From contig NW_026852521.1 in assembly GCF_026571515.1 (NCBI RefSeq), positions 1 through 64,000 of the forward strand: DNA of 64,000 nt, read 5' to 3'. The notes under the pieces are model-generated. The model had not been told where the DNA came from. It worked only from the letters and a program-made list of their open reading frames with translations, and ran no database searches. A program made the translations under genes and the position numbers. This document shows positions 8,901 through 62,893 of this stretch, piece after piece. Position 1 is the stretch's first letter. Every line of letters starts with the position of its first letter. Origin of the DNA: Ruditapes philippinarum (Eukaryota).

Positions 8901-11001
8901 GTTTTTCTGTCATTATATAATTAATGTTTAGCTATAGCAACAGGTAATGAACCAATGAATCATGTTTCAATATGGTATTAGAATATGAGATTTACCAGTT
9001 ATCAGATAATTATTTTGTACTTTTAACTATTTTTCAAATCAATTAACGAAATGTCATTCATTGCTGTCACTCGTTGATTCTGAAAGGAAAAGTCTTAAAT
9101 TATCAGAAAATTGGTTATAAACTATATTGTATCTGGAAGACCTTTTCTGTATTATGAGAATAAATTTGTGATAAAATCTTGAAATAATCGCTGAAATATA
9201 ATTCAAATATTTATTTCACATCTTATAAAACAAAATTTATGAACTTCAGGCATTTGCGCGTCGTGATGTTCCAATTTTAAAAAAAGTCTGGTTTAATCTT
9301 AAAAACAACTGTAGGTGCTCATTCACTTAAATGTTAATAAATGTCTAAGGATCATAACTGAATCTGACAAGTTATCATAAGAACTCCATCCTCCGTGTAA
9401 CAGTTCATCACCCGTGATTATTCATGCTTTATTATTTTATTATTGAAGGTATCTTCCCAAAGCCCATTACTCTGACATGGATTTTGACTGAATAATGATG
9501 AACTTAAAAAATTCCTAGTGCACTAACCAAAACTCTGAATGAATGTTTTCTGTTATTTCCTACAATATGCAGTGTCTTGTTTTTCGATATGTATCAACAC
9601 TGTTAGAAGTGGAGCGCGTTGACCAACCCTACAACTCTTGTTTTATCGTTTTATTGCAATATTAATCGTTACTTTACAGCATTTAGGATGGCAGCTAGCC
9701 GGACTTTGTGCGATATTTGTGTGGTCAGCCATCCTCAGTATCATCTTATTCTTCACTCTCAAGAAAACAAAAATGCTCCGAGTTTCTTTTGAATATGAGA
9801 TGAAAGGTGTGTATGTTGTTTTATAATTTGATGATGTTTGTAACGTCGATTTCGAATAATAATGCTATTCATGTACTCCGCCGCTGGAAATCTGTCTATT
9901 ATTTTCTTTTTATTCCACCTGCATAACAAACATGTTCCGTCCAACCAAATCTTGGCAAGTTACATAACTGTGTCTTCTATTTTCCAGTTATTTTCCCATT
10001 TAGCTCTTAGCTATGCTACTACGGCAAGTTGGACATATCTTAAGTTATAACTGTACTTTGTTGCTAACACAGACACTGTCATGGTCATATGGCGAGGTTC
10101 CAGACTTACTAGTGGCGGAAGACCTCAGGTGTCTGTTCCATTACATTATTCCAGGCACAAGCTTGCACCTAAATAGAACCACTGACGTTCCGTAAGAAAA
10201 CATTCAATTTGACATAATGAGTAATGTTATTATGCTTGATAGAAATTATGTGGGCAATCATAAGTAATAGAAACAAGTAATTGATTTATGTATTAGGTTT
10301 GGACATACCGAAACACGGAGAAACCGCCTATCCAGCGGAGGCGTACGGTCATGGTTGGGGAGAAAAGGGCGACACTTTAGCTGGTCTGGCGAAAACAGCA
10401 ATTGCATCTAGTACAGTGACAGCCATCAATGAAGGTTAGACTTTCATTTTCTGAAAATCATTGTATTGGTTGTTATAATATATATAAAATAAATGAAAGA
10501 CATTCATAAGTATTACAAGACAATCGTATGTCTATAAAAAATAATCTCGATTAGACTTCAAACAGTAAATTCGATCCTGGTTGACCTTAAAACAACAACC
10601 GGGGTTTAAGCAGTAAATTCGATCCTGGTTGACCTTAAAACAACAACCGAGCTTTTTTAGAGAAATTATATACATGTATTCTACGAAACCTTTAACTGCT
10701 ATGAATGTTTTCGTAAATATTGTTTAATATAACATAGATTTGTTCCTTGTTGAACTAGAAAACATTAATTTTCATTATTCTTTAAGAGCTCCACGAATGT
10801 CGCGTTTTAACAAATTATTAAATGACCATTAGGTGGTCCTGTCAATACAAATTTTAAATACATTTTTTGTTATAATATTTAGATGTTTCGATGAGATTAC
10901 CACAAAAAGCAAGCCCTGGAGAGAGCCCTGAAGTTGATGCAATGAATAACAAAAATGGTCACGTTAACAAATCATTTACTGGATCATCAACACAATTATA
11001 A
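5966..11001 (+). CDS. amt: Ammonium transporter (Amt family), 5'-truncated second copy with 7 exons: 5966-6103, 6923-7156, 7459-7597, 8066-8160, 9680-9806, 10297-10434, 10883-11001
   Basis: Spliced translation gives [13 protein letters not shown]...GPRIGRF...[42 protein letters not shown] and GLDIPKHGE. Both pore histidines are present and all intron phases are consistent. No N-terminal exons were seen between 4279 and 5965. Confidence 0.9.
8474..8562. repeat. Hairpin (palindromic) repeat element
   Basis: atggccgtatataaacggttg ... caaccgtttttataaggccat flank a central aaccctcatctcgcgactcgggtt. Confidence 0.6.
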
Positions 11002-12578
11002 ATTGAAAATTCAGAAGTTGTATATATGAACATGAGTATTTTAATAAGAAGTAAAGGACAAAAAGCCTTTAAAATTCCTTATAGATGACATTGAATAATC
11101 TTACACATATTTTAGTTACATTGTACACATGTATATTGAATATTGTTTTTATTTAATATTTTTATTTTAAGTTATATTTTAATATTTGTTATATCACATT
11201 TTGATATCTTATACTTGAAGCTGATATTTTTATATATGTTTTATAGATAGATATTCAGAGTTTACTGTCATTCGAAAGCACATTTCTTTTCTTCTGTTCA
11301 ATATCTTTAAGTGATTGTCAAATATATACGCCACTAATCTGATACTGTCCGCATCTTTACTGAGTAACTCGTCACTTGCTTTTACTATATTGTCGATTTC
11401 GAACATTTAAAGGGTCAATATTTTGTACAATGTATCATATATTTTAAACAAAACATTCATTGTATATCATATAATGTTTTATCTCATTTTAGTCGTATTT
11501 TGCGTATTTGGATATTTTTTACACTAATAAAATTATTTATATAAATGTTTGCATAGTTTTTCTGTGTTACTCTGTATCGTGACAGTATAGCCATATTCTC
11601 TTGACTCTGGATAAAAATTGCAGAGCTATATAAACAATTAAATTTTAGTACCTAGTTTTGAATTCATTTGTATTTAACCACATCTTCTATCTTAAACTTA
11701 TATATTGATTATATATTGAAAAAAGTAGCGCATTGAACATACGACCGATAACTTGACGCGTCAGAGATAAAAATTAAGTAGAAATGCGTCGGATAAAAAG
11801 TAACCACTTAAATGCTTTGATAATATTTAATGCAATTAACTGATATATGTCGATGGTAATGTATTTATAACAGAAAGTGAAATAGAACTTGTATGTTACA
11901 TATTCTTCATAACTGGTAAAAATACAACATTCTACGCTTTCGAAACACATCTTTTACTGGTCTAGATTATGTGTTTAAAATAGAAGATACAACTTTAAAT
12001 AATTATTATATATAAATATTTTGATCTTGTATTGAAAGAACATCTAGGTTATTCCATTACTGATATAACTGTTGCTCAGGCTGATTATAGAGCATTAGGA
12101 ATACTAATTGCTAACATTAAAGCTTTTCTGTTTGGGGCTGTGATACTTTATCTTTTTTTAATGCTGTGCTGAATACAACTGCACATTACCTTTTGTATGT
12201 TGGAAGATATACTTCAAAATACAGCAATGTGTGGCGATGTAGAAACCTGTAATATATTTTGTTAAGAAACTGGAGTAGAATAAGTAATATGAAATAAACA
12301 AATATTTTTATGGTCTAGTATTAGGTGTTGGAATATTAGATGTTAGAATTGGAATTTCAAATTCTGCCCATTGTTTAAGAAGTATAATATGGAATGATTG
12401 TACATTAATTTTGAAAATCAGATACAAATACAAGAGTTGTTATTATATTGCTTATTATAATCATAATCGGAATAATACTGTCAATCAAGAAAATCAAGAA
12501 TCAGCGGGAAACGGTACTTGAAGAAACAAATTAAGTTTATATAAAACATTTAAGTGTAAGTGTTGAGAATTGAGTACC

Positions 12579-12990
12579 GCTCAAGCCGTGCTAGGGGGCG
12601 TAAGGGATGTTGCACTTATTCATTATCCCTCATGTACAGACTCAATCAAACCGAGTCTGCAATTTTCATGTCATTTTGTTGTGATTAATACTTCCTAGGG
12701 ATCACTTGTTTCCAGATTTTTATACTTCACAACAGCAGGTGTCAAGTGCCGTGTGGCAGCTGTAAAAAGTTGCCCGTATTTCACTTCAGTGTTGTTATAT
12801 TTTTCTGGTCATTTGGGATCATTGATGCTAGCGCTATTAAGCTCAAGCCAGTGCTAGGGGGCGTGAGGACTGTTGCACTTATTCATTATCCCTCATGTAC
12901 AGACTCAATCAAACCGAGTCTACAATTTTCCTGTAATTTTGTCGTGACTTATGTTTTCGTTGGATCACTTTGTTTCCAACTTTTGTAACT
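12579..12990. repeat. Dispersed repeat family, two tandem ~260-bp units here. Related copies at ~4070-4278, ~14570-14605, ~20236-20330 and, reversed, ~31845-32080 and ~51090-51320.
   Basis: Shared motifs gtgctagggggcgt and the hairpin cag(a/g)ctcaatcaaaccgag(t/c)ctg. The copy at 20236 matches the linker portion 12733-12825. Confidence 0.75.
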
Positions 12991-16307: not shown

Positions 16308-18128
16308 ATGGGAGCTACACTTTTATTTGTAATTTTCTGTGTAATTTTTGGTGTTTTTTGGAGTTTTGAATCACTAATATGTTCATTGATTGCACTATTT
16401 ATGTGCATTATTTATGATTTGTATCATGTAGTTAAAACATTTATTTTCTCTTGTTTTTACAAAATAACAAGACGATTTAATTCAAGAAAGTTAATGGAAA
16501 CGAACAGTTTTAAAAGGTATTTAACCGTTTATGGTACATTTTATTACTCGAAAAACTAAATTTGTTATTCAAGATAATTTAATTTTTATTTGTGCTTTAT
16601 ATTTAAAAATATGTGATCCCTTTTGAGTATAATAAAAAAAAATTTTAAAACTGGTTTTTAGGGCCCGTCTGTATAATTTAATTCCAAAATTTTCTAAAAG
16701 TTTCCCCGATAACCTTTGCTTTGATGGGCAAAATAACCATTTTTTCCCTATAAAAAATGCTATTTTGGGTTTTAGTTTTTGGTTTTGGGGCGAGAGGGGT
16801 ATTAAACTTTTTTTATTAATTTCCCTTTATGTACAAACTCAATTTAAACTGAGGTTTTTCAGTTTTTTATGTTTAAATTTTGGGATTAAATTTAAAACTA
16901 ACAAGGTTGATCCATTTTTCCCTTTTTATAAATCCCGTTTCTGCAAAAAAACCGTTTAACTCGACAATTAAAAAAATTGGGGAAAAGTTACCCCTCACAC
17001 TTTGTTTGGTTTTTATAATGCACATGTCTGTATGAATATTTCGAATAAAGGTCAACAACGTGGTAACATGGTATCATCATTATCAATCGTCTCAGTATTG
17101 TAAGTTATTTTTTCATACTAAAATCCAAAATGGACTGATTCAAATCACAGATTCAGCATAGTCATTGTTAAAGTTGGTTGCCTTTTAAATGTCTTATAAT
17201 CTTTTTTTATTGCAGTTTTGTGTCTCCCAACAGACACAGACTTTAATTTGCTTCTGACAGAAAGATGTCTGTTGAAAGAATGCGACTTTGCTCTGCTAAA
17301 GTTTTGGACAGAAAACTATGTGTATGATGCTTTAAGCTCACGAAAGGCGGAGCTACTTCAATCAGGGCGATATACATGCTTCAAGTATCCAATCAGGGTG
17401 TTTGAAAGCTTTGAAATTGTTACTAAAGTAAGTCTAATCACTACGTGAATATAAGTTATAATACAAGAAGTGTAAGTTTGACGAAGAATACGTGAATTGC
17501 AAAATTAATACAAAAAAATATTGATAAGAGTATGTGTTATCATAATGTCACAAGCGATACTTTTATTGAAACCATTAAATGAACAATTTACCATAGCAAG
17601 TTGCAGTCAATCTCATTTATTTATTAAACACAATTATTTGAATGAAAAAAGGGTAAATTCTAATTTGACACAAAAAGAATAAGAATAAACTTTATGTGAT
17701 GTTAAATATTTCGAATGCTTGATGGTCTTATAAAGTTATCATTGATATTCGTCTTATAAAGTAGTCATTAATACTCGTCATATAAAGTAATCGTATAGAT
17801 CAATACATTGTCGATTTATTAATTCATATTTGTGATGTATTATGTCATTTACTGTTTTCAAACATTTTTTTCTGACTGTATATTTCAGATATCTTACTGT
17901 GACGAAAAAGCATTTTATGTAACACAATCTATTCTCAGGAACGCTGATAAATGTCTGTGTGCCACCGTGTTATCTGTTCATCAAATTGTAGGGACCAAGA
18001 TGTCTACATTATTGGGGAGCAAAAATACCACCTTGAATAAATCCAAGTTTGAAAATGTAGTTATAACGTTCCAAGAATTCCATTCGGATTATTTCAAACA
18101 AGTTAAAGATTCGTGGAAAGGTGTTTGA
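16308..18128 (+). CDS. THEM6: THEM6-like hotdog-fold protein, paralog A: exons 16308 (or 16257)-16516, 17216-17427, 17889-18128. There is a 1-nt phase mismatch at the exon 1 donor.
   Basis: Hydrophobic N-terminus, then CLPTDTD...LKECDFA...PIRVFESFEIVTKISYCDEKAFY...CATV, colinear with the THEM6 pattern [35 protein letters not shown]. Exon 2 is 212 nt, the same length as in paralog B. AATAAA at 18166. Confidence 0.75.
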
Positions 18129-18935: not shown

Positions 18936-20805
18936 ATGAATTATACAAATATGTTTCTGGTATTAGTTTTAACATTTTGTGTGTTATGGATGTTCAGTTC
19001 ATCCCTGTGTCTAGTGTTTGGATTATTTGTAAGTTTAAGTGTTGATATACATGCAATATGGAGAAATGTATTGGTCCTTTATTTCTGTAAGATGAGACGG
19101 AGATATCATCCGAAGAAAATAACTGATCTCAATATATTCAAAGGTAAACATTATTGTCTTTTTGACATGATATGAACGGTCAAAGCAGATTGGCAATGTT
19201 TTAATTATATTTATAAAAGCTACAGCTTGGAAACACGTTTTGTTGTATACCTAAAATATTCAACAATGTGATTATGAAATTATATACAATATCATACACA
19301 GAATAACCGTCTCTTCATGATCTTGAATTAATAGAATGTTTTTTTTTCGAAAGGCAATTTGATTGCAGACAAAATATTATAGATATATAACAAAATCAGT
19401 TCCAATTTTCAGTGTAAAGTCAAAATAAAGATAATTATATACCTCTAAACTGGAAGTTTTATTAAAACTGGTTTTGCATTGCATAAAATACTTATATCAT
19501 AGACTTACGCTCATCAGCTGTTAAGTTTTAATATACAATACAATTATATAATTTCTAGCTCTTGATGTTATTTTTCTACATTAGTTAGTCTATCCTTTAT
19601 TGAGACTAACGCCCCCATGATTGTATTATGCACAAACATAATGCACTTGGTTAAGTAGTACTTATTTTTGACTTTATGTAAATGAAGAAACTAATGAAAT
19701 CAAAGGTACAACTTACTTGAATGATACTATTATCACTCACCTTTGTCGGTTATGGATGTACTTATACCTTGTACCTATCAAGATAAATTGCATATTATAC
19801 CACCTCTTTATACTATTAGAAATTATCACAAATAAGTATACATACACTGATATGTGTTAAGAAGAATTCCTCTTGAAGGACACGATATAATAATTGCGTT
19901 TTCTTTCCATACAGTAATATGTTTACCAACCGATGTAGACACCGACCTACAACTTACGAGTGGACGTCTTCTCAGAGAATGTGGATTTGGTCAAAGAGAA
20001 TTCTGGGTAGAGAATTTCGTTGAAGATGTCGTGGAACGTTTAAATGGGAAGATGAAAGTTGAAGCATATCATCTGTCATATGATACTCCTATTGAAATGT
20101 TTGAAACATTCAAAATAATAGCTGTGGTATAAATGTTTATATCAACTCAAATATACTACTGGTAATATAGCACGTAATACATAGCATGCATTATCGTGTA
20201 TCAAAGTTTCATTTAAGATATTTATATATCGCAAAAGCAGGTATCAAATGCTATGTGGCAGCCGTAAAACGTTACTCCGTACTTCACTTCAGTGTTGATA
20301 ATTTTTCTGGTCCTTCGGATCATTGACTCCACAAATCACTTTTTTTTAGATATTAAATTTGGAAATACTAGCTTCAATAAAACTTCAAATAGCTTTTATT
20401 TGTACCAATGTACCAAGTTTCATGACCATCATTCTATTTGAAACTTGAACACTGTTTGTTTCTTTTGTATTTCATATCGTATTTAGCAAGTGATTTGTTA
20501 CAAGAAATTACATAATGCCAGTATATTATTTGATTGCAACGTCATTTTACACGAGACTTTTTAAAAAAATTATATTGCAGTTGATATATTGGGATGACAC
20601 AGCGTTCTATATGAAGCAGACGATAGAAAGAAACAGAGACAAGAAGCAATGTGCGACCATTTTATCCCGCCACAAACTCACAAACGTTACGACGAAACAA
20701 ATTCTTAATTCATTAGATAAATGTGATGTAGAAAGTAAACCGGTTCCATCAGACCTGTTACAGAAACTACAGACGCTAAGTGGGAACTTTTCTAAGAAAC
20801 AATAG
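18936..20805 (+). CDS. THEM6: THEM6-like hotdog-fold protein, paralog B: exons 18936-19143, 19915-20126, 20581-20805 (214 aa)
   Basis: Splices in frame: MNYTNMFLVLV...FK/VICLPTDVD..LLRECGFG..PIEMFETFKIIAV/LIYWDDTAFYMKQ..CATILSRH..PVPSDL. The WDD.AFY and P.DL motifs match THEM6. Confidence 0.85.
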
Positions 20806-22126
20806 CTTTGTACTACTTAGTATCTATACCTTTATTAAGTATACTTTCTTACGTAATACTTAATTGCACTAGTGTATACATTCACATTTAAAATAAATGT
20901 ACTTATATAAGTGTTGAAGAACATTATTAGAGGCATTCCTGAATGTTGTTATCTGAGTACACTCCCGTGGTGTGCGCTTAGGGGCGCTTAAACATAAAAA
21001 GCAGTGTTTTGATATTTAATAAATTATATACTGATCAAAAATAATAAAGATGTTGCGTCATATTTAAACAAAGGTGTGAATGGGACAAGTTTTTCTAAAA
21101 GACTTACTTTAGAGCGAGCAGCTGACCGACATAGATCTAATAAATGAAACAGATGAAAAGAAAATACTACTCTCAACTCAATTGGAACACTGACGATTAC
21201 TCACAATCATCTCAGACATAACACGAAATAAAAATATACCTACAAAGTGACAGATTTAAACAATTCTTTGTTTAAAATGAATAACAAGTATATATTTGAC
21301 ATCCAAAGGAAAACAAAGTCTATACCGTTGAAATAACAGACTCAATTTAAAATTGTCCATTGAAATATATGTACTATCATACATTGTAACAATGTGTCAT
21401 AGAACGAGAAATATTCTTTTTGTAATACATGTATTCTATTATTTGCACTTTACATATCGTCATAGCATATGTACTACGTCTATTTTTATATTTTGTAAAT
21501 ATTTGTTATGAATAAATATCTTGGATATATACATGAACCATATACAAATAACTTCCGACTGGGCTACGTCGACAAATATCAATATGACTTGGTATATAAA
21601 CAATGAACAATGCACTGTTTAATGTCAGATCTATAATTTTACTTAATTCAACTATTACACGATATGGAACAAACTCAGTCAACTACAACCAGTATTTACT
21701 TACTATTCGGTTACATTATTAGTTTATTTAACGCATGTTACACCGAGGTACAGCATCCGTTTCTTACTATTGTGTTCAAAGTCCTAATCAGAGGCAGAAA
21801 AGTTGCTTTTGCTCCTACTCTGTGTTCCAATCGTAAAATAAGTAGCTATTGCAAGGCATAATAGCCGAGGAGATCTAACTTTCCTGCGTTCCTGATGATT
21901 TGATACAAACGGAACACCTCGATGAAAAGGATTAGATTTGTTATGGTTAAACTTGAAGCAAAAACACGACAATTACGTTTTCTACTGTATCATATACAAA
22001 AACCACCCTGTTTGTATAAAATCCTTTAGGAATTGAATGAATGTAAATCCTCCACAAAATTATCCCTATCAGAGAATGAGTAACGAGTGGCGGTGACCTT
22101 TACATGATTCGTTATCCACGCATTGT

Positions 22127-23874
22127 CACAGTATATAAACGATCTGAACCCAAACCGGATCTTGTGAGAAGATGTCAGTGTCAGCCATTTTCTGACGCTT
22201 AACTTGTTTAATATATTGGTATTTATATTGATACTTATGGACGTTAGGTTAGTAAATCTATATTTATATCGCAGAAGAGAAACTTTATTAAGCGTTTAAG
22301 TTATGCAAAATATAAATGTTAGCATTAAAGCTATAAAATAATCGAAACTCACGAACTGCTTTCAGGTGATCAACACTGAACACTAACAAAAATCCGTCTT
22401 ACTTCAAGGTTTATTTAGTTAAACATTGAATTGTGATATCCAACTACTAAAATAATCAATAACAAACGATAATTTAGTCATCTGCAAAAATATTGCTGTA
22501 TTTTGAACATTAAATTAAGAGTTTAACCAAGGAGGTCAATTCCGTAAACTGAACGTTACTTGCTGGTGATTGTGAACCCTACCTGTGAGTTTACGAATTT
22601 TATCTGTACCCTGACTTGCGAGTATTTTTAAAGATTTAATGGAGAGAACATTAATTATTTAACGTATTTATTTGTTTATTGACAGGCAAAATGGAAGAAT
22701 TTAGTTTTCATTGCCCCCTTTCTCTTTAAAAAAAATCGGAAACACTATTGTTCGGAATTTGGACATCAGAACAAAAGCTTAAAATAACAATAACAAAACA
22801 TAAAAATCATACTCAAAAGACTTTAGAATTATTCGAAAAGAACTGAAAAAAATAAAATAAAAAGAACTTTAAAAGCAAATGATATTACAAAAACAGTCAA
22901 AATTTTAAGACAAGAATGACTTGAAAAATAATCTCAAATCAAGAAATGTAACGGCTCGGGTGATATAAAATCTTAGCAGGTAATATATCCGCATATATCA
23001 CTCCAAAACCAAAATAACTTATAATACAACGGTCACGTCAAAACAAACAGTAATGCCGTAGTAGAAACGTTTATAGTACTTAATATGTTATATCTTAAGC
23101 TTTATATCTTTTCAAAGAAAAATGAATGGTAAATGAAGATAGGATTTGTTGGTTGATAATTCCTGTCAAGAAATAATTTTTTCCTAATTCGTATTAACAG
23201 CTACTTCATGCTGGTATTTCCATGGAAAGTAAAACATGATGAAGGTCCATTCATGTGCAGTATTGGTAACTTATATAGAACTAAAAGATGTGTCATGCTC
23301 TTGTGACACAATAACTTCATATTCTGCAAGATATAATTTGGAACATAGGACAAAAACAATAAAAATCATCAAAAGTGACTCGCAAGTTATGGTTCAGTGA
23401 AAACACAAGCAGGGTACAAATCATTAAAATTGTTTTAGCAAGACGAGTACAGTTATCAGAATGTTCGCCTCTATTATTTACTGTGTTTTTATCAATATTC
23501 AAAGATATCTACACAAGTGTCTGTGCGATAACACAAGGTAAGACAATAAAGTTCACATTCAGATATGAGTTATAGTGAAATAAAACAATTTTAGGCATAA
23601 ATTTGCTTGTGTAATCGGCGTGTGTTGACATAAACAAAACACGAAGCGGAGAGCACAGCGTTTTATGCGCATAAATCTAAAGAAGCTGGTTATAGATGTA
23701 TCTATAAGCAAAGAAAAAATATTTCTTAATATGATTCAAATGTTTAAATACCGTCACAGATTAAATGCAAGCCGTCTTAAAAAGTTTTATGGGTCACCCC
23801 ACCTGTTTGTACGGAACTGATGTTGAGATCTTCTCACAAGATCCGGTTGGGGTACAAATCGTTTATATACTGTG
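22127..23874. mobile_element. Non-autonomous DNA transposon with ~57-bp TIRs beginning CACAGTA and a 5-bp TSD (ATTGT); Transib/RAG-like signature
   Basis: Left end cacagtatataaacgatctgaacccaaaccggatcttgtgagaagatgtcagtgtcag. Right end, reverse-complemented, cacagtatataaacgatttgtaccccaaccggatcttgtgagaagatctcaacatcag. ATTGT at 22122-22126 and 23875-23879. Confidence 0.75.
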
Positions 23875-25192
23875 ATTGTTATTAGCTAACTGAATTCTTA
23901 TAAGAATGGTAAAACATAAGATCCGAATGGTTTTATTTTATACTCTTTAATTGCTGTACATCTTTACTCAACCTAAACAATATGTATATATCTATATAAT
24001 GTATGTAACAATATATGAGTAAACTTTAAGTAGGTGGAGATTACATATAATGAATAACATCACTACCCACAATTATAGAAAAATGCAGCACTGCGCCTGA
24101 AAGCGCTAGAGGACCCTTCATCAAAGTCCGGGCGACGCATGGTCTAGTGGTGATAATCATGACTAAAATCTATTAGTTGTAAGGTCGATATTACAGTACC
24201 ACACCGTACAATCAAATGGGCAGACAGCTGTTCCAGCGTCCACAGCTGTACCAGTATGTATACATGTCGGCGCGGGGAATACAATTGACGTACGGTAAGT
24301 ATTCATCTATTTTTAACATATCTTAACTATGTTTGAGTAAATCAATGTTATGGATTCATAGTCAACATCCTAAGGGACATGCTTACAAATTTCTGGCCGT
24401 GTGCAAGCTTTACTTCACGTGAATTTTGACTGAAAATAACCACACTATCCGATGAGATGCGGTGTTTTAGTTTAAAGTCACAAAAACTTATATTTTCTCA
24501 TGATAATAAATCCTTTTATCATACGATTCGTAAACGTCAACATTTCGTCATTAAATACTCCAAACCATACCTTCAAAAAAGCTTTCTGTTAAAGTTATAA
24601 GGTATTTAAGTTTGAGTGTCATCAAAATTTTAGTAACGTCATCAGCTGTTCGCCTCTTTTTAATGATAACATCGACAGCAATTCATCGGCAAGAATGAAT
24701 AACGCTGAACGCCGTTCAAAGAAACAATTTTCAGCGCTTTTGAAAGAGTAAAACTTTTTTGCTCATTTAAAATATTACTTTATTCATGATACTTTCTAAT
24801 TATATTATTTTTATTATTACTTTCTATTATATGTTGTATCTTAGCTGAGAGGCCTTTATCTCCATTTACCGCACTGTATTTCAATATAAAAAGGTAGCAA
24901 GATCTATTAATATGTTTCTGAAATATTAAATTCAAAGAAAGTAAAGGCAAATTTAACGCTTAATACGAATACACTTTATAATAAATAAAGGCATCCATCA
25001 AGTCAGTGTTATTATAAATAATGGCATATAGTAGACATGTCCCGTGCAGTAAATGGCTGTGTTACCCGAGATGTCTGCCACATAAAATGATTTATTTAAA
25101 ACAAAAAAAAAATAATTTTTAAGAATGATTATTATTTCTATTGCACTATAAATTAAATCAGATTTTAAGGATCAAAATCAACATGTTTATCC

Positions 25193-25409
25193 NNNNNNNN
25201 NNNNNNNNNNNNNNNNNNNNNNNNNNNNNNNNNNNNNNNNNNNNNNNNNNNNNNNNNNNNNNNNNNNNNNNNNNNNNNNNNNNNNNNNNNNNNNNNNNNN
25301 NNNNNNNNNNNNNNNNNNNNNNNNNNNNNNNNNNNNNNNNNNNNNNNNNNNNNNNNNNNNNNNNNNNNNNNNNNNNNNNNNNNNNNNNNNNNNNNNNNNN
25401 NNNNNNNNN
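25193..25409. other. Assembly gap (N run) inside the microsatellite of the left foldback arm
   Basis: Run of N characters. Confidence 1.
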
Positions 25410-25719
25410 TGTGCGTGCGTGTTTGCACTTATGTGTATGTGTGTGTGCGTGCGTATGTATGTGTATTTGTCTTTAGTTCTATACCCGATACACCAGTGAC
25501 ACTGTTTAACTCATATTCTCTATATTTCAGGCAGTTCAACTGATGTGTTTCCACCAAAGGCTTAATGCTGTCTTGGAATATTAAAAATGTCAATACACAA
25601 TATTAGCATTTATAAGTATCCATTGCTGTATCTTTTTCTCCCTTATAAATTCTGAAAAGTCAAAAACACAATGTGTCATAATTGCAGTAATTAACTTCAT
25701 CATATCATCGAATGATATA

Positions 25720-26345
25720 ATCAAAGCACAGACGTCGCTGAATTTGTTTGGGTCTCAGAATGACAGAAAGGTGAAGATTGTGAGATAATAAACCAATTTG
25801 TTTTTGTATAGTGCCACCAATGCTTTCCAGTGTTTTAACTGTAGTAATTTGGCTATAAGACTACTTGCAACACTGATAGTCAAATTGACTTAAAAAAAGA
25901 GTTTCCTCAACTGGGATTTGAACTCCAGACCTCTCGATTCTTACGCGAGCATGCAAACCCCTCGGCCACGGTGAAGTTTTATTTAAATAGCTTGAAGAAA
26001 ACCATATTATTCTAAATTAGGGTTTGTAACTTATTATTTCGACGCTAAACCTGTTGTTTAACACAGATGTAAATAATCATGGAGCTTCTGTAAACATGTA
26101 TATCTATAAAAAATGAAACAATTTTAGAAATATTCGACCATTCGGGAACTAATTTGCTTGAAAATTAATGCGCCTGTCATTTGACAATCTTTACGCATTG
26201 ATCCCCCCTGAATTTTTCGGCGTTACGTATAAAGGGAAGTAACCGCTTCAAAAAAGTGGACTACTTTAGGCATTTGCAATTAACAGCATTAGGCTCTGAA
26301 ATTTCGCTACCATTATTTGTTTGGTTTGACGACCCAAACAAATAA
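25720..26345. repeat. ~620-bp module, repeated in inverted orientation at ~29490-30115, containing a tRNA-like A/B-box segment
   Basis: aatcaaagcacaga...gacgacccaaacaaat matches the reverse complement of 29490-30115. The segment ccgtg(g/a)ccgagggg...gttcaaatccc resembles a SINE head. Confidence 0.85.
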
Positions 26346-27763
26346 AAATGGTTGGATTGACGGATGGATGAATTTATGGTACCATATGTATGCAGTCAAC
26401 CTTGTAAACACACACATGCACGTAAAAATTACACTTTCATAAAGCAATTACATGAACGCACAGACAAAAAATCATAAATACGCACAAAACACTCACATAC
26501 TACACGCACAGACAAATACACATGCATACGCACGCACACACACATACACATAAGTGCAAACACGCACGCACACGCACATACACACAAAAACATATACATA
26601 CATACGTCCGTCCGTCCGTCCATCCATCCATCCATATATTGAATACGGAAAAACATGTTGTTTTTTATCCTTAAAATCTGTTTTAATGTATAGTGCAATA
26701 GAAATAATAATCATTCTTAAAAATTATTTAAATTTTTATGTTTCAAATAAATAATTTTATATGTCAGACATCTCGGGTTACACAGCCATTTACTGCATGG
26801 CAACATATAATAGAAAACAAATAATAGAAATTAATAATAAAAATAATATAATTAGAAAGTATCATGAATAAAGTAATATTTTAAACGAGCAAAAAATTTA
26901 CTCTTTCCTAGTTACTGTAGCACAAAAGCGCTAAAAATTGTTTCTTTGAACGGCTTTCAGCGTTATTCATTCTTGCCGATGAATTGCTGTCGATGTTATC
27001 ATTAAAAAGAGGCGAACAGCTGATGACGTTACCAAAATTTTGATGACACTCAAACTTAAATACCTTATAACTTTAACAGAAAAGCTTTTTTGAAGGTATG
27101 GTTTGGAATATTTAATGACGAAATGTTGACCTTTACGAATCGTATGAAAAAAGGATTTGTTATCATGAGAAAATATAAGTTTTTGTGACTTTAAACTAAA
27201 AATACCGCATCTCATCGGATAGTGTGGTTATTTTCAGTCAAAGCACGTGAAGAAAAGCTTGCACAGGGCCAGAAATTTGTTAGCATGTCCCTTAGGATGT
27301 TGACTATGAATCCGTAACATTGATTTACTCAAACACAGTTGGGATATGTTAAAAATAGATGAATACTTACCGTACGTCAATTGTATTCCCCGCACCGACA
27401 TGTATATACTAGTACAGCTGTGGACGCTGGAACAGCTGTCTGCCCATTTGATTGTACGGTGTGAGTACTCCAACTTAAATTTACTAACATTCCTGAGGTT
27501 CTGTATAATGATATTTTACAGCTCTTGTAAAAAACTAATTGTTTTCCTCGATTGGACGTTTTTCTGTATAGGATGCACTATGCTCTAAGAAACTGTCATC
27601 TGGTCTGTGTCGCCAATATGCACACCGTATCACCGACACTAGTAATGACAGATTTCTGGAATGAAAACAGAAATCTAAAATTTAATACAGGTAGGTTATA
27701 AACGTGGTTGGTATATTTATATTACGCAAAGAAGGACAAATTCATTGCTATAGACATATTATC

Positions 27764-28101
27764 CAGGGTTTTTCCCCCAGGATTTTTGGGAACATCACCC
27801 ATACCCATGAAATTGGGAATTTCAGCGGTGTTTTGTTAAAAATTAGGAAAAAATGCATGACTGAAAGTTTACAGTGATTAAATAAATGCAAAGAATTACT
27901 GTCTAGGATGGCATCTTCAAACATTTAAGCACTATTACAAAGAAGAAGCCCTTATTTTCAAAGATTCTAGAATTTTTAATCAACATATTTATTTTGTAAC
28001 TTTCAATTGGGATTTTTTTCTGTGGATTGGGAAAATAATATACTATTTTCAATTGGGAATATGACCCAATAACGGCTATAAAATAAGCCAAACAATCCCT
28101 G
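27764..28101. mobile_element. Small hAT-like MITE (CAGGG...CCCTG) with an imperfect 5-bp TSD (ttatc/ttgtc)
   Basis: Terminal caggg/ccctg and repeated internal aattggga motifs. Confidence 0.55.
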
Positions 28102-28362
28102 TTGTCCATTGACTTTAGATACTATACGGTAATTTTGGACTCCTTTCACGATTTCATAAAATATTTTGAGCGAGTTAAAATAACATGAAAATGTTACATA
28201 TTCAAAATATGCATATTGGCAGACTGAAAATTGTAAAATAAAATTTATTTAAACTTTGAATAAGCTTAGAATATGAAAATAGATAAATAATGGGCGGAAC
28301 TAAACACAATGGAATATGGAAAGGAGATCAGAGGTATGAAAACTGCATATCACGGATATGAC

Positions 28363-31300
28363 CAGGGCTGGGAATCAAAACTGCGTCGTATCCTACAAAA
28401 TGTAAACAAACGCCGCCATCTTGGAACGAAAAATGTATGTTTTTGTTTATAACTCTTTTTGTTGGAAATGACTTAAATCCAGGTATATGTATTAACACGC
28501 TACACTATTTTCCGCTTCGTTCGGTATATGTTGCTTGCACAACTATTTTGTAAAACAAAAGTTATAGCGAACTTGCAACTCGAAGCGGGGCAGAATTTTT
28601 ATGAAAATGTGTGGATACAACGCAGTTCATATTGCTTTATCTATCGTTTTTTCCTTCAAATCATTTATATATTTGTTTCAGAGTTCACCATAAACTTCGA
28701 AATATAATTTTGCGTCATTTACAAAAAATTCATTAAAAAGAGATGTTTATTTTCTAAGAAAATAATGATTTTTACGAAATGATACGACGCAGTTGAAAAT
28801 AAAATATGATACGACGCAGTTGTATTTTTGACAGTCTTTTCAACAGGGATAATTTGGCAATATATTTCTTTTTTATGGAATAATCACTTGCGCTAGATAA
28901 AAAATCCCAGATCATTTTCGGTGTATAGCAATGCTCAGTTGCTTTTGATTATTTAGAATACATTGTGTCATGTCCAGTTGAAAGTTAACATTGCGGAAGC
29001 TACTTTTCAGTTAAACATGAGCATGTTGACTAATTGAACATGTTTACTAATTGATCATTATATCTGAAATAATTTCTTATATTTTCCTGTATGTTCATTA
29101 TTATCCCTTTTTTTTCGCAAAAAAAATTAAAATTATTAATTTTAAATTTCATTTTCTAGCTACCCTAATTAAGGGGGTTCGCATTTCTGTAAGCTTTTTT
29201 TTGGGTCTGTTTTTAAAAAACTTAAATCCACTTTAGCTTTACTAGGGGGGGACCCGGGTCGCTTTTAATTTTTTAAGCAAAATGTTCACCCAGAAAACCC
29301 ACACTTTTGAAACTAGTTTAAAAGGTTTTTCCACACAAAAAGAAAAAAAAGCCCCGGGTTTTTTCAATTCAACGTTCAGTTAAGTGTTTTAAATTTCAGT
29401 AAACTAAACACTGGGCCCTCGGTGGACACACCCCTGTCTGTTTTTTCAAAAAATTTTTTAACGTCAGCTGTACAAATAAGCAGCTTTTAATTTGTTTGGG
29501 TCGTCAGACCAAACAAATAATGGTAGCGAAATTTCAGACTCTGATGCTGTTAATTGCAAATGCCGAAAGTAGTCCGCATTTTTGAATTTGAAGCGGTTAC
29601 TTCTTTTTATATTTACACTAACGCCCAAAAATTCAGGGGAGATCACTGCGTAAAGATGGTCAAATGACAGGCGCAAAATAGTTCCCGAATGGTCGAAGAT
29701 TATTCTTTATCGATATACATGCTCATAGTAAGCTCCATAATTATTTACATCTGTGTTAACAGTTAGCGTCGAAATAATAATTAAGTGTTACAAACCCTAA
29801 TTTAGAATAATTTGGTTTTCTTCAGGCCGTTCACATATACATTCACCGTGACCGAGGGGTTTGTGCGCTCGCTTAGGAAGCGAGAGGTCTGGAGTTCAAA
29901 TCCCAGTTAAGGCAACTCATTTTCTTTTCAAATTGTTTAAGTGAAATAAACATTGAATTGAATATCAGTGTTGCTTATAGCCATTTTATTACAATTAAAA
30001 CGCTGGAAAGCATTGGTGGCACTATACAAAAACAAATTGGTTTATAATCTCACAGCCTGCACCTTTCTGACATTCTGAGACCCAAACAAATTCAGCGCCT
30101 TCTGTGCTTTGATTTATTAACTTCTGGCGTGAAGTTTTAAGATTATAAATATTTGAATTAATTATAAAGAGAATATCATTTAAATTTCTTATTTCGGTAT
30201 GACTAGCAGAGAATTTTTCAATGTAAACAGGGGGTACTGTAATCCTCTGTGAAGTCATTTTCTGAAAACGTTTGTTTAAGTTTTCAGTCAATTCATTATC
30301 AAATAAAAATCACACTTTAGTACGAAGGTATGCCATGTCTCTAGTCTTTTGAAAATTCGATGCGATAATCTGACCTAAATTTTCTGTTCAATATTGTGAA
30401 AACTTTATCAGTACTGTTGAAAGATCATGTCTGCCTATATCTGCATCAAATTTATCGGTGCACAGCGTAAAATAACCCACTTGCAAACATATTTTGTAGC
30501 TTAACCATTTATAATATAATTATTAAAATCTAATGTACAGTTTCAAATAATAAAGCTCATCTGTTCTCAACGATTATTAAAAAAATGATATACAATAAAT
30601 AGGCACGTAAAAGACATAAGTAATAACGGAATTGACGGAAATTATTGCTAATTACAAGTTACAAAGGTTGGCATGCAATTTGCGCATAGCTCTCTCCCGA
30701 TAGCGAGAGACCTTTTCAAAAAATTTGTAATTCTTTCTCTTTTTTTTTTTAAAGGTCATTCCTGATTAATACAGGGTCCAGGAGAGGTTACCCTGGTATA
30801 TTGAATTTTGTATCAAAAATAGTAATCACTCCCATTTCGAACTCACGGGAACAATTTTAGAAGCATGCTAAGACAACACTGGAAGACGTTGTCATATGGG
30901 TGTGCGGTCACGTGTTTCAATGTATATTGCATTTAATACAGCTTTTCGGAATTTGTAGATGCTTATGATAGGTACTAAAATGCGACCAAAAAATGCAGCC
31001 TTAATAGAATTGTATTATATTTCCATTTTTATGGAACCAATGAGTGACCTCTACTTTTGACTTAAGTTGTAAACAAGAAATGTTGTTGGATGTTATTAGC
31101 ATATCTAGCACATAATTTAAATAGTTTAACCAATTTGCAGCCTGCAATGAAAGTACAACTGCGTCGTATCATATTTTATTTTCAACTGCGTCGTATCATT
31201 TCGTAAAAATCATTATTTACTTGGAAAATAAACATCTCATTTTAATGAAAATTAAGTAAATGATGCAAAATTATGTTTTGAAGTTTATGGTGAACTCTGA

Positions 31301-31617
31301 AAACGAGTATATAATTGATTTGAAGGAAAAAACGATAGATAAAGCAATATGAACTGCGTATGTATTTACACATTTTCATAAAAATTCTGCCCCGCTTCGA
31401 GTTGCAAGTTCGCTATAACTTTTGTTTTACAAAATAGTTGTGCAAGCAACATATACCGAACGAAGCGGAAAATACTGTAGCGTGTTAATACATATATCTG
31501 GTTTTCAGTCATTTCCAACAAAAAGAGTTATAAACAAAAACATACATTTTTCGCTCCAAGATGGCGGCGTTTGTTTACATTTTGTAGGATACGACGCAGT
31601 TTTGATTCCCAGCCCTG
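28363..31617. mobile_element. Non-autonomous hAT-like DNA transposon with ~465-bp TIRs and a 5-bp TSD (ATGAC)
   Basis: cagggctgggaatcaaaactgcgtcgtatcc... (28363-~28825) is the reverse complement of ~31150-31617. ATGAC at 28358-28362 and 31618-31622. The motif gatacgacgcag is iterated within the TIRs. Confidence 0.85.
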
Positions 31618-32299
31618 ATGACGTCAAGAAGGAAAATTTAAAAGAGCAGGCCACATTAAGGAGTATTGGAACCCCCAAGTAGAAAAAGCCAAATATAAGA
31701 AAGAAAAAATACCATAAAGATGTACGTGTACACTACAATAATATCGTGCTGAACGATCTTCAAAGATCGAAAGTACTTGTACAACGAACGGGGCGATTTT
31801 ACGGCCTCTACATGACACAAATAACACTGTTAACGTTGTGACAATAAATAGAGAAAAACAGAATTCCTAAAGAAAGCCCATCATGTCAAAATTGAAAATG
31901 TTGCAGGCTCGGTTTGATTGAGCCTGTTCATGGACCGTAGTGGTAATTGCAAGCTACCGTCCACGCCCCCTACCACCGGCTTAACCAGAATACAACATTC
32001 AAACACGAATATATATAGTGATTGAAAGTTTGAATTTATAAAGATCTGCAGATGTGTTCATACGGCGGTTATCATAAACCACAAGTGAGAACTAACTTAC
32101 TCTCAAATAAAAGTTGCTAAATCCCGTTTACATGTCCTTAACCAAAAGGGACGAGGTTATCAATCAGACAAAGGTCCAACCTGTAGATTTCTGAGAGGGT
32201 CTCTGTCCTAGTTGTAAATTTCCTGGGAGGTCTTTTGTTCGTTTTGTCATGTTTAGATGGGCTGGGACGTCTTTCTTTCCATACTCCTCGCACTCTAGC

Positions 32300-32817: not shown

Positions 32818-33035
32818 CATACATGTGAACTCTCCCACTTTTAGCGGGAGACTACCACTTTCTGCAGCCATATTTTCAAAGAATTTTCTTAAAAGAAGGG
32901 GTATTTTTACAAATTCAAGAAATCTACCTATTTTTGATTTCAGAACTTCCTTCTTTGGTTATTGCAAATTCTAAAATCTCCCTCTTTTTGAAGAAAAATC
33001 TCCCACTTGATCATTGAAAAAAATTCACATGTTTG
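32818..33035 (+). mobile_element. 218-bp MITE with a 6-bp TSD (GTATCC)
   Basis: Termini catacatgtgaa and ttcacatgtttg, gtatcc on both sides, iterated ctccc motifs. Confidence 0.8.
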
Positions 33036-33611
33036 GTATCCAAATGTGATATGGTTGCACTTGATTAGTAAAATCAGTTTAAACAGATTTTTTACTAGTT
33101 TTATTTTGATTAATGATACTCTTTTATTTTGTTCTTTTATCTATCAATGCTGAATAAAAATCAATCTTTTAATCTAAAATCCTAATGCAACTTATTAACA
33201 TATTTGTATTAGGTGTAAATGTATATTTATAACATAGGGAAAAAACATTTTGTCTACCGTTGATGCATAAATTGTATTCCCCCAACATGTATAATAAGTT
33301 GCAATATGGCTGACAATAGATGGAAACATCAGTGATGAAATTTTAAATCAGTGTTCCAACCAATAAAGAAGTGATACTGTCACTGATTTTGAAACTGTCA
33401 GTTTGGTGATGAAATAAAAGTATATTTTTCATTGTATTGCACATATTTTGACATGAAATTCTTTACTTTTATAAATTTGATTTATGCTACGTCTTTTTGA
33501 TACAATCAGTTTAGACGTTGAAAAAAGCCTCGATAATATCAAATGTAAAATGTCACAATGATAAATATAAAATGTTAAATAACTTTTTTCACGGCTAATT
33601 ATTTGGACTAG

Positions 33612-34005
33612 TGTCACAGGGTGAGAAAAATGTGCAGCCTGACCGGGACTCGAACCCGGGGCCCTCGGAATACCGTTCCATGGCTCTACCGACTGAGCTA
33701 TCCGGCCTCTTACACATCTTCTCCCCTAAATAGTGAAACATTCTGAAACGTGACATACTTCACTACAATATTGAAATTCGTCCTCGAATTTCACAAAGCT
33801 ACAAAGCAATGCTAATTGAACTCTGAGCTACAGGCAGTCCCGGTCTCCTGTTGGGCGCCAAATGTCACAGGGTGAGAAAAATGTGCAGCCTGACCGGGAC
33901 TCGAACCCGGACCCTCGGAATACTGTTCTGCCACTCTACCGACTGAGCTATCCGGCCGCTTACGCATCTTCTCCCCTAAATAGTGAAAAGTTCTGAACCG
34001 TGACA
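33612..34005 (-). mobile_element. 394-bp non-autonomous LTR element (TRIM) with tRNA-derived LTRs at 33863-34005 and 33612-33755
   Basis: Both repeats are bounded by TGTCAC...GTGACA with a 4-bp TSD CTAG. The minus-strand PBS TGGCGCCCAACAGGAGAC (33843-33860) lies 2 nt after the 5' LTR and matches tRNA-Lys. Each LTR contains GCCGGATAGCTCAGTCGGTAGAG...GGTTCGAGTCCC. Confidence 0.9.
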
Positions 34006-34051
34006 CTAGTATTTGCATAAGAGTAGATCTTCATGTAAATTAATATAGATA

Positions 34052-35059
34052 CGAGGGTTGTCAAAAAAATTCGTGCACTGCAGTTATTGTCGTGTGAGTT
34101 ATTGATAGAAAAACATTAATTATATATCACTTGAAGGGGAGATATATCTTAAATAAGAGAACAAAAGAAAAAAATATGTAACCGGCATGTCCTGAAAACG
34201 AATCGTCATACAGTTACCTTGGTAACGTAATACCGGCGCATGACAAAAAATTGGGTTAGTTCATTACTTTGATGCATCACGGTATTCTTTAAACACTACC
34301 TATTAACGTTAAAATTCACGGAAAAGTGTGTGTACGTATTCCTAACGTCACTAAAAAATATGGCGTCATTTGCCGTATTGTAACAGTCGTAAACAAACAT
34401 TTGTGTGCGGTCATCAATACTGTAATTACATGAAAATGTCAGTCGCTAAACGTCTGGAAATACGGACGATCATTAAATTTGGTGCAAATATTGGTAAATC
34501 ACCAACAGATACCTACAAAGAACTAAAAATGGCAAGCGGGATAAGTTCAGTGTCACGAAGGCTGGTTTTTAAATGGCACAAACGCTCTGTGGAAGAGAAA
34601 GAGAGTCGGTAGACGAAGACAACCAGTCAGGCAGACGTCCGTCCATAATGCCGGCGCATGTGACGAGGGTTGTCCAATATATTCCTGCACTGGTGGAATA
34701 TGCTACATGTACGTTGCATAAAAAAAACAATAAAAACTACACAATACTTTTCATCAATCATTCCTCTATTGACAGTAAAACAAATTATAACATAAAAAGC
34801 AAATACCACTTTATATTTACAAGATACAAACAGTACAATTACAGTAATGAACTAACCCAATTTTTTGTCTTGCGCCGGTATTACGTTACTAAGGTAACGC
34901 AATGACCTTTCTTTTACACGACACGCCGGTTACTCGGCTTTTTCTTTTGTTTTCTTATTTGAGTCAGATTTCTCTTTCAAGTGATATATAATTCATTTGT
35001 TTTTATTAATAACTCTCACGACAATAACTGCAGTGCACGAATTTTTTGGACAACCCTCG
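34052..35059 (+). mobile_element. Internally deleted mariner element with a transposase N-terminal HTH remnant (~34430-34650)
   Basis: TA-flanked TIRs cgagggttgtc... / ...gacaaccctcg with extended ~200-bp inverted homology. The peptide RTIIKF..GKSPTDTYKEL..SVSRRLVFKWHKR..RESVDED..SGR is a Mos1-type HTH. Confidence 0.9.
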
Positions 35060-35694
35060 TAGCACTTTATAGTTTTTAAATGAAGATGTCGTCTTGAAGA
35101 GATTTGTGATATTTTATCTTGTCACATATTGATTACTATAACACAACATTTTACATCACCACTCAGAGTAGAAGTCGTGGGACGAACTCAATATAGTCAT
35201 CTAACTAGCTTACAGTAGATCTAAAAAATAATACCTAATATAAGTCATTCAAAAGTGGAATTTGTATCAATATGTTGCGACAACAATTTTTTTTTTGTTA
35301 AATATTATTTAGTAATAGATTTACTGCTTATTATAGATTTTATGGCATGATTAATTTATAATTGTAAACATTTTATATTTCAGGTAAAAAGTTTTAATCT
35401 GTTCAGACTATGAGTTTTTAATGTAAAGCATGAAATTGTGAAGTTTAGTGTCATTCATTAACCAACAACTGCGGAAATATGCATCGATGTACTGTTCAAG
35501 CTGGTGCAGAAATAAACAATTTCACCTGTCCTCATGTAATAACGAGTAGAATTAAAAAGAACTTAATGCAGGATGAGTAGAAAAATTTTGCTTGCAAATT
35601 GGATTTAGAACCAACCTGCCCTGTAGGATGAGTGACTCTAAAAAATATTTTGTGATTCCTGTGGTGTTTAGATCTATCATCATGAAGGAATTAA

Positions 35695-35912
35695 CATATA
35701 TGTAATGTTTTTTTGATGATCAAGTGGGAGATTTTTCTACAAAAAGAGGGAGATATTTGAATTTGCAATAAACAAAGAAGAAAGCTCTGACATCAAAAAG
35801 AGGGAGATTTCTTTAATTTGTGAAAATACCCCTTATTTTGAGAAAAATCTTTGAAAATATGGCTGCAGAAAGTGGGCGTCTCCCACTAAAAGTAGGAGAG
35901 TTCACATGTATG
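35695..35912 (-). mobile_element. Second copy of the 218-bp MITE, in opposite orientation, with TSD aattaa/aattat
   Basis: Reverse complement of 32818-33035. Confidence 0.8.
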
Positions 35913-62831: not shown

Positions 62832-62893
62832 GTAAGTTATTTCTGTGTTAATCTGCTTCAAAGTTTATGACTAATGGAATTAACTTTGAAGTA

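What the first reader, a model, noticed from the sequence alone, without database searches (positions are those of the whole stretch)
22127..23874. Transposon with RSS-like ends (CACAGTA) and a 5-bp TSD: candidate Transib/RAG-like non-autonomous element
Seen: both termini start CACAGTA (6/7 match to the V(D)J heptamer CACAGTG) and are flanked by an exact ATTGT duplication. The left end has ACCCAAACC 14 nt after the heptamer (7/9 to the nonamer ACAAAAACC), and both ends carry CGGATCTTG 22 nt after it. Established: CAC termini with 5-bp TSDs characterise Transib and ProtoRAG/RAG-like transposons, and amphioxus ProtoRAG TIRs carry a GCCATCTTG element. Inference: a RAG/Transib-type transposase mobilised this element in this genome. 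The spacing is symmetric, unlike 12/23 RSS. Caveat: the ends can also be read as TCAC...GTGA with a 3-bp TTG duplication.
Basis: partly seen in the sequence, partly recalled or inferred. Interest (0 to 1): 0.75.

Follow-up and report, generated by a model that had tools for sequence, protein, structure and literature searches.

The report
CAC-ended clam transposon, probably not RAG
This is a real, many-copy, 1.75-kb jumping-DNA element in which no gene was recognised; its tips look like antibody-gene recombination signals, but its deeper end sequences and its AT-rich landing sites differ from the RAG/Transib family, so it was likely moved by a different cut-and-paste enzyme, which was not found.

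Summary
In detail: 22127-23874 has CACAGTA ends, 47/51-bp inverted repeats and an ATTGT duplication. It is an aged multi-copy family (21-36 flank-bearing contigs per run), and one sample carries an allele without it. Flank consensus across copies (A at +1, T at +5) fits a 5-bp duplication at AT-rich ANNNT sites; the 3-bp reading is less likely but was not excluded by paired flanks. The RSS-nonamer and ProtoRAG-TR5 likenesses are at chance level (p 0.06-0.34). They overlap two halves of a motif, TGWACCM..CYTGYG, that recurs twice in each arm 447-479 bp from the tips and nowhere else in the window: likely the mover's own binding sites. The described Transib and protostome RAGL end signatures and their GC-rich targets are not met. 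No protein remnant was recognised, so the mover is unidentified. The scan noted other CAC/5-bp elements on other DNA of this genome, three linked (unchecked) to a P-like, exonuclease-bearing transposase; I rank that first (0.45) and a divergent Transib/RAGL second (0.3). An ordinary non-autonomous transposon with an open, testable question about its enzyme.

The parts
22122..22126 (.). left target-site duplication ATTGT
   Evidence: sequence
22127..23874 (.). whole non-autonomous DNA transposon copy, 1748 bp
22127..22177 (+). left terminal inverted repeat (47/51 with right; weaker to 22184)
22145..22166 (+). outer copy of bipartite motif TGWACCM..CYTGYG (spacer 9); overlaps the 'nonamer-like' and 'TR5-like' stretches
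22466..22646 (+). left inner arm segment (offsets 340-520), inverted-similar to 23355-23535
   Evidence: score 60 vs 7.6+-9.8, 0 of 300 shuffles; 1 of 4 non-overlapping segments tested
22573..22587 (+). inner motif copy, offset 447
22605..22620 (+). inner motif copy, offset 479; other copies read T at 22619, making its second half identical to that of the TIR
   Evidence: table 3
22918..23026 (.). piece of a far more abundant repeat with a weak hairpin, probably nested or captured; limits approximate
   Evidence: X1 depth 31119 vs 92-1518 in most other element bins; loose end at 23026; fold
23233..23575 (+). two open frames (55 and 70 codons), joined in one other copy (P0008); no family, likely non-coding
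23355..23535 (-). right inner arm segment (offsets 340-520)
23381..23396 (-). inner motif copy, offset 479 (same offset as on the left)
23404..23418 (-). inner motif copy, offset 457
23835..23856 (-). outer motif copy in the right TIR
23824..23874 (-). right terminal inverted repeat
23875..23879 (.). right target-site duplication ATTGT

Best explanation
This is an aged, multi-copy 1.75-kb DNA transposon with CAC ends and no recognised gene that was likely moved in trans by a cut-and-paste transposase other than RAG/Transib, which likely duplicates 5 bp at AT-rich ANNNT sites and is predicted to bind a two-part motif present once in each terminal repeat and twice more about 450-480 bp inside each end. 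Shown: ends, duplication in this copy, many flanks, an allele without the element, six motif copies. Inferred: the enzyme loads on the outer and inner sites, pairs the ends, cuts at the CAC tips and joins them to target strands 5 bp apart, and gap repair makes the duplication (general DDE chemistry, established knowledge). Inferred and untested: the enzyme belongs to the P-like, exonuclease-bearing group that unchecked scan notes link to other CAC/5-bp elements of this genome. My odds by step: non-autonomous transposon 0.97; 5-bp duplication with CAC ends 0.88; inner motifs are binding sites 0.7; mover not RAG/Transib 0.7; mover P-like 0.45.
For: Multi-copy: in the listed rows, 22 and 36 contigs per run leave the TIR at 23873-23877 into unrelated DNA; element depth is far above flank depth in 4 of 4 runs. 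Allele without it: joint 22119-23886 in X11, 1 of 4 runs. 5-bp ANNNT: of 92 listed contigs that reach 23874, 25 stop there, so the next A is common, not fixed; the consensus letter at +5 is T in 11 of 14 rows (8 of 8 rows ending at 23874/23875) against 7 of 14 at +4 (read by eye). A neighbour at 24200-27463 has CAC ends and AGTAC on both sides, which cannot be re-read as 3 bp. Motif: 6 copies in the element, 0 in the other 62 kb, shuffle mean 0.001; same offset 479 at both ends. Not RAG/Transib-like; only one Transib ORF in a mollusc-wide screen (passage). Inner inverted repeats some 400 bp from the tips are a feature of zebrafish P elements (passages).
Against: No transposase was found, so the enzyme is not tied to these ends by any result of mine. 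Described P elements make 8-bp duplications. The X11 allele keeps no TIR bases, loses both duplications plus 2 and 6 flanking bases and gains 4 letters; if it is an excision scar this fits a flush or hairpin-type cut better than the P element's 17-nt stagger, but it is a single allele and may be an unrelated indel. CAC plus 5 bp is the textbook Transib/RAGL mark, and Transib ends vary more than first described. Left and right flanks of other copies could not be paired; rows are consensus lines of 3-18 contigs, 81 rows were not shown, and loci recur between runs. The motif was defined from the sites it is counted on. Sequence look-ups found no look-alike of this element among the scan's notes, so the P-like elements are other families.
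Confidence: 0.45

Rival explanations
1. A divergent Transib or RAG-like transposase moved it: nick-and-hairpin cleavage at the CAC heptamer, 5-bp staggered insertion.
For: CAC ends and 5-bp duplication are the shared marks of Transib and RAGL; heptamer 6/7; an AAACG stretch like the protostome consensus lies 3 nt further in; RAGL elements and 1.5-2.6-kb non-autonomous copies exist in oysters; Transib TIRs can be symmetric and variable; the X11 allele keeps no TIR bases.
Against: Positions 24-25 CC and 34-35 TC instead of AA; AAA at 11-13 not 8-10; 7/17 to the protostome consensus; nonamer and TR5 matches at chance. Targets A...T and AT-rich against 46/70 GC and 11 of 14 ending in G for RAGL. 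One Transib ORF in the mollusc screen. No inner repeats at 450-480 bp were mentioned in the RAGL/Transib passages I read.
Confidence: 0.3
2. The mover is another lineage that makes 5-bp duplications: an undescribed member of the CACTA-Mirage-Chapaev-Transib clade or an hAT5-type enzyme.
For: The clade shares CA..TG ends and 2-5-bp duplications, and hAT5 makes 5 bp (passages). A second neighbour, 28363-31617, has CAGGG ends with a 5-bp ATGAC duplication, so 5 bp is not confined to CAC ends here.
Against: No enzyme found; no described family with these ends turned up in 8 literature searches or in the supplements searched.
Confidence: 0.17
3. The true ends are TCAC...GTGA with a 3-bp duplication (TTG), the element inserting between A and T somewhat as Chapaev3 does.
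For: Formally fits this copy; 67 of 92 listed contigs run on past 23874; all 5 listed left-end pieces include the T; Chapaev3 inserts at A-TWA-T.
Against: 25 of 92 contigs lack the A, more than lack the terminal G (8 listed); it needs two assumptions (extra terminal base and A/T outside the duplication) where ANNNT needs one; Chapaev ends are invariably CAC and Chapaev3 duplicates TWA, not TTG; the CAC neighbour has an unambiguous 5-bp duplication.
Confidence: 0.08

Closest known systems
Non-autonomous Transib elements (TransibN1-3_AG; Kodama/Hopper) (PMC1131882 passages and section 9; 10.64898/2026.08.26.747230 passages)
   Same: CAC ends, heptamer-like tip, 5-bp duplication with a sequence preference, gene-less copies of 1.4-2 kb moved in trans
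   Different: No AA at nonamer positions 5-6 at 12- or 23-type spacing; AT-rich ANNNT rather than GC-rich CASTG/CAWTG/CARTG targets; inner repeated sites at 450-480 bp
Non-autonomous RAGL/ProtoRAG elements of pearl oyster and amphioxus (PMC7204232 passages and supplement 2; PMC8289069 passages)
   Same: CAC ends, 5-bp duplication, 1.5-2.6 kb size, bivalve hosts
   Different: 7/17 to the protostome TIR consensus; TR5 6/9 without the critical CC, spacer 22 and symmetric; duplication composition opposite
P superfamily, zebrafish Pdre2 and Drosophila P (PMC7776569, PMC10983969 passages)
   Same: CA..TG ends; inner inverted repeats far from the tips (about 400 bp in zebrafish); internally deleted copies
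   Different: 8-bp duplication in P, 5 bp here; longer TIR; no THAP or transposase remnant recognised here
Chapaev/Chapaev3 (PMC4079192 passages)
   Same: CAC..GTG ends; A...T context at the insertion site
   Different: 3-4-bp duplication (TWA); neither 3 nor 4 bp is duplicated at CAC ends here

Membership tests
Transib | 5'-CAC ends | tested here: met
Transib | 5-bp duplication | tested here: met
   exact in this copy; family-level support indirect
Transib | AA at nonamer positions 5-6 at RSS12/23-type spacing (Kapitonov and Jurka section 9) | tested here: not met
   CC at 24-25, TC at 34-35, CT at 35-36 at both ends; later work finds TIRs variable
Transib | GC-rich target sites | tested here: not met
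   ATTGT here; consensus flanks A/T-rich with A at +1, T at +5
Transib | Transib DDE transposase | tested here: inconclusive
   no remnant in six frames by Pfam or in four frame searches; no genome held
RAGL/ProtoRAG | protostome TIR consensus with AAA at 8-10 | tested here: not met
   7/17; TAT at 8-10
RAGL/ProtoRAG | TR5 GCCATCTTG at 27/31 spacing, positions 2-5 and 7-8 critical | tested here: not met
   6/9, positions 1-3 differ, spacer 22 at both ends, p about 0.2
RAGL/ProtoRAG | convergent RAG1L and RAG2L genes between these TIRs in a partner element | not testable with these tools
   no eukaryotic genome search available
P superfamily | 8-bp duplication | tested here: not met
   only 5 bp duplicated
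P superfamily | inner inverted repeats or binding sites away from the tips | tested here: met
   not unique to P (own knowledge)
P superfamily | THAP plus P-type DDE transposase | tested here: inconclusive
   no remnant recognised
Chapaev / CACTA (CMC) | 2-4-bp duplication at CAC ends | tested here: not met
hAT5 | hAT transposase with 5-bp duplication | not tested
   known only from one passage; its end sequences were not seen

The most novel reading that the evidence does not exclude
This family is a gene-less passenger of an undescribed group of animal transposons that combine RAG/Transib-style CAC tips and 5-bp duplications with a P-like, exonuclease-bearing transposase and P-like inner binding sites; the 'CAC plus 5 bp' signature would then have arisen twice and would not by itself mark RAG relatives.
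Probability: 0.4. Interest if true: 0.6.

Novelty: new member of a known kind. Interest (0 to 1): 0.3.

Why it matters
As tested, it is one of many gene-less DNA transposons of bivalves. It matters as a caution and a lead: ends that look like V(D)J signals are used to flag RAG ancestors, and here the likeness stops at the tip. The family gives a sharp probe (51-bp TIR, six motif copies, ANNNT target) for finding the enzyme in a clam assembly. A RAG/Transib partner would add a lineage with reversed target taste; a P-like partner would show convergent end chemistry.

Tried and rejected
No whole genome is held, so the genome-wide TIR search could not be run. Pattern scans for relatives: 16 metagenome hits and 2 prokaryote-genome hits were chance, with no extension of the TIR and no blastn match of the element to the 16; 0 viral hits; P0008 found no viral locus. 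Protein remnant: Pfam on 6 frames of the element gave 1 sub-threshold hit; 15 frames of two neighbours gave 2 sub-threshold hits. Word searches with one plus frame at 165-525 aa, one minus frame at 306-2000 aa and P0008 at 194-2000 aa gave nothing; phmmer with another plus frame found only 2 short ORFs from other copies on 1.1-1.6-kb contigs. The first plus frame's start (22691 on) and four of six frames were not searched by phmmer. P0008 scored like shuffled protein in the Atlas. Splice-like signals (AG then ATG at 22684-22693 on + and 23325-23318 on -) were seen by eye, were not flagged by my scan, and the apparent donor at 22585 is part of the repeated motif, so I do not claim a gene. Long ancestral TIRs: offsets 60-340 are not similar between arms (290 and 52 of 300 shuffles reach the score), so only the inner segment is claimed. 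TIR likeness to the CAC neighbour is weak (p 0.02-0.12); no internal homology. Rfam 21500-32000: 1 chance-level hit. The X11 scar was not used to assign chemistry.

Full report
Observation. The element spans 22127-23874 (1748 bp). Both ends begin CACAGTATATAAACGAT and the inverted repeat is 47/51. ATTGT flanks both sides. With CAC ends only the 5-bp duplication exists among lengths 2-10; with one more base at each end TTG is duplicated; the repeat extends no further.

Setting. The window is about 31% GC and rich in repeats. The element lies about 1.3 kb behind thioesterase-like exons at the start of a cluster of inverted-repeat elements. The runs that hold it are of one coded organism. Earlier scan notes call the genome a clam; I did not test this.

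It is a multi-copy, aged family. In 4 of 4 runs laid on 21700-24300 depth rises from about 5-50 in the left flank to about 90 to tens of thousands across the element (the tool warns that this is no copy number). Listed pieces differ from this copy by roughly 8-15% (for example 22/212, 57/456). In one search, 559 contigs were laid on the right end; in the 14 listed 'behind' rows 100 of them (21, 21, 22, 36 per run) leave the TIR at 23873-23877 into unrelated DNA; 81 loose-end rows were not shown. One run (X11, 1 of 4) has a contig joining 22119 to 23886 with 4 other letters between, an allele without the element, and another joining 21820 to 23912. The first is not a clean empty site: it lacks both duplications and 2 plus 6 flanking bases. 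It may be an excision scar or an unrelated indel.

Five or three bases. A clean empty site cannot tell the readings apart, and flanks of other copies could not be paired. Indirect evidence favours 5 bp. Of 92 listed contigs reaching 23874, 25 stop there and 67 run on, so the A after GTG is common but not fixed. Counting outward, the consensus letter at +5 is T in 11 of 14 rows (8 of 8 rows ending at 23874 or 23875), against 7 of 14 at +4; +6 is G in 7 of 14 (read by eye; rows are consensus lines of 3-18 contigs and loci recur between runs). A at +1 and T at +5 from both ends is what a 5-bp duplication of a palindromic ANNNT site gives, and it explains why most copies can also be read as TCAC plus 3 bp. 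Against: all 5 listed left-end pieces include the T. The neighbour at 24200-27463 has CAC ends and AGTAC on both sides, unambiguous 5 bp.

The RSS likeness stops at the tip. Nonamer matches have p 0.061 and 0.34, TR5 matches p 0.19 and 0.20. The AA pair conserved in Transib TIRs (PMC1131882 section 9) is absent at 12- and 23-type spacing. The protostome RAGL consensus (PMC7204232 passage) is matched at 7 of 17 and its AAA at 8-10 is TAT here, though AAACG occurs 3 nt further in. ProtoRAG TR5 needs CC at 2-3 and 27/31 spacing (PMC8289069 passages); here those bases differ and spacing is 22 at both ends. Transib and RAG prefer GC-rich targets. The 14 paired duplications of non-autonomous RAGL copies in supplement 2 of PMC7204232 are 46/70 GC, 11 end in G, 2 begin with A, 1 ends in T (my count; rows without paired duplications left out), the opposite of ANNNT. 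A mollusc-wide ORF screen found one Transib element (PMC10294476 passage). On the other side, Transib ends and duplication lengths are reported to vary (preprint 10.64898/2026.08.26.747230 passages; PMC9435367 passages), so these misses lower but do not exclude membership.

What the ends do contain. The stretches taken for nonamer and TR5 overlap two halves of a motif, TGWACCM..CYTGYG, found at offset 19 of both TIRs and again at offsets 447 and 479 (left) and 457 and 479 (right), all facing inward; 0 copies in the other 62 kb; shuffle mean 0.001 against 4 inner copies (motif defined from these sites). ACTTGCGAGT lies at offset 488 from both tips (9 of 5000 shuffles give such a run on the diagonal), and offsets 340-520 of the two arms align at score 60 against 7.6+-9.8 (0 of 300), while 60-340 and 520-870 do not. 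Other copies read T at 22619 in 4 of 4 runs, making that half-site identical to the TIR's. I infer binding sites for the mover or a helper protein. Zebrafish P elements have subterminal inverted repeats about 400 bp in (PMC7776569 and PMC10983969 passages), but P makes 8-bp duplications.

No enzyme was found. Pfam on six frames, three word searches, one phmmer search and the Atlas on P0008 gave only two short ORFs from other copies. Collection scans gave chance hits. No genome is held.

Earlier scan notes. On other pieces of this genome, notes describe several CAC-ended elements with 5-bp duplications; three (e1-9944638, whose ends also begin CACAGTA, e1-9972552, e1-9181860) report remnants of a P-like transposase with an inserted exonuclease, others found no enzyme. 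I could not check them, and sequence look-ups show no look-alike of this element. They moved my odds from Transib/RAGL first to P-like first; they are leads, not support.

Mechanism. Shown: ends, duplication, many insertion flanks, absence allele, repeated motif. Inferred from general DDE chemistry: an enzyme supplied in trans binds outer and inner sites, pairs the ends, cuts at CAC, inserts with a 5-bp stagger at ANNNT. Odds for the enzyme: P-like group 0.45, divergent Transib/RAGL 0.30, other 5-bp lineage 0.17, TCAC/3-bp reading 0.08. The X11 allele, if a scar, leans mildly against a P-type staggered cut.

Literature. Eight searches turned up no description of this family; that a P-like exonuclease-bearing group is undescribed rests only. 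Seen: PMC7204232 abstract, passages, supplement 2, part 1 of supplement 6, term search of 9 supplements (file 9 cut); PMC1131882 passages and section 9; passages of PMC8289069, PMC10462144, PMC4079192, PMC12730594, PMC9435367, PMC7776569, PMC10983969, PMC10294476 (12 of 33 supplements searched), and of the two preprints. Repbase and Dfam were not available.

Verdict. Real, ordinary in kind, unassigned in enzyme; the RAG link is not supported beyond the tip and the duplication length. Interest 0.3.

Noticed in passing
window 24200-27463: Foldback element with about 1-kb arms, CACACCG ends (46/46 identical) and a 5-bp AGTAC duplication; high copy; a second CAC/5-bp family 325 bp from the finding. 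No Pfam remnant.
   Followed up: partly
window 28363-31617: Foldback element with CAGGG ends and a 5-bp ATGAC duplication; shares an inner stretch (29485-30114) in inverted form with 25719-26348 of the previous element. All three adjacent 5-bp duplications begin with A.
   Followed up: partly
window 22918-23026: Short piece of a repeat far more abundant than the element with a weak hairpin; a Crypton-like non-autonomous fragment is a lead from recall and note e1-9818671.
   Followed up: partly
window 22119-23886 and 21820-23912 (run X11): Two alleles lacking the element; the first replaces 13 expected bases by 4 letters that match the reverse complement of nearby flank on either side; unexplained.
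   Followed up: partly
window 32818-35912 and 34050-35061: Inverted-repeat element with CATAC ends and no matching duplication, holding a nested element with TA-CGAGGG ends (mariner-like, recalled label).
   Followed up: no
window 783-4215 and 9301-12733: Near-100% identical direct duplication at 8.5-kb spacing around ammonium-transporter exons; recent tandem duplication or assembly artefact.
   Followed up: no
window 38963-39982, 45608-45892, 59713-60942: 165-166-bp satellite arrays, the first preceded by CGTC microsatellite; like Helitron-borne bivalve satellites (recalled label).
   Followed up: no
window 41310-44502: Broken Ty3/gypsy-type gag-protease region, flanked by a 254-bp identical repeat at 39985 and 45022.
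   Followed up: no
window 17200-18128 and 19851-20805: Two tandem thioesterase-like gene copies; beta-hexosaminidase (GH20) exons at 52413-62851.
   Followed up: no
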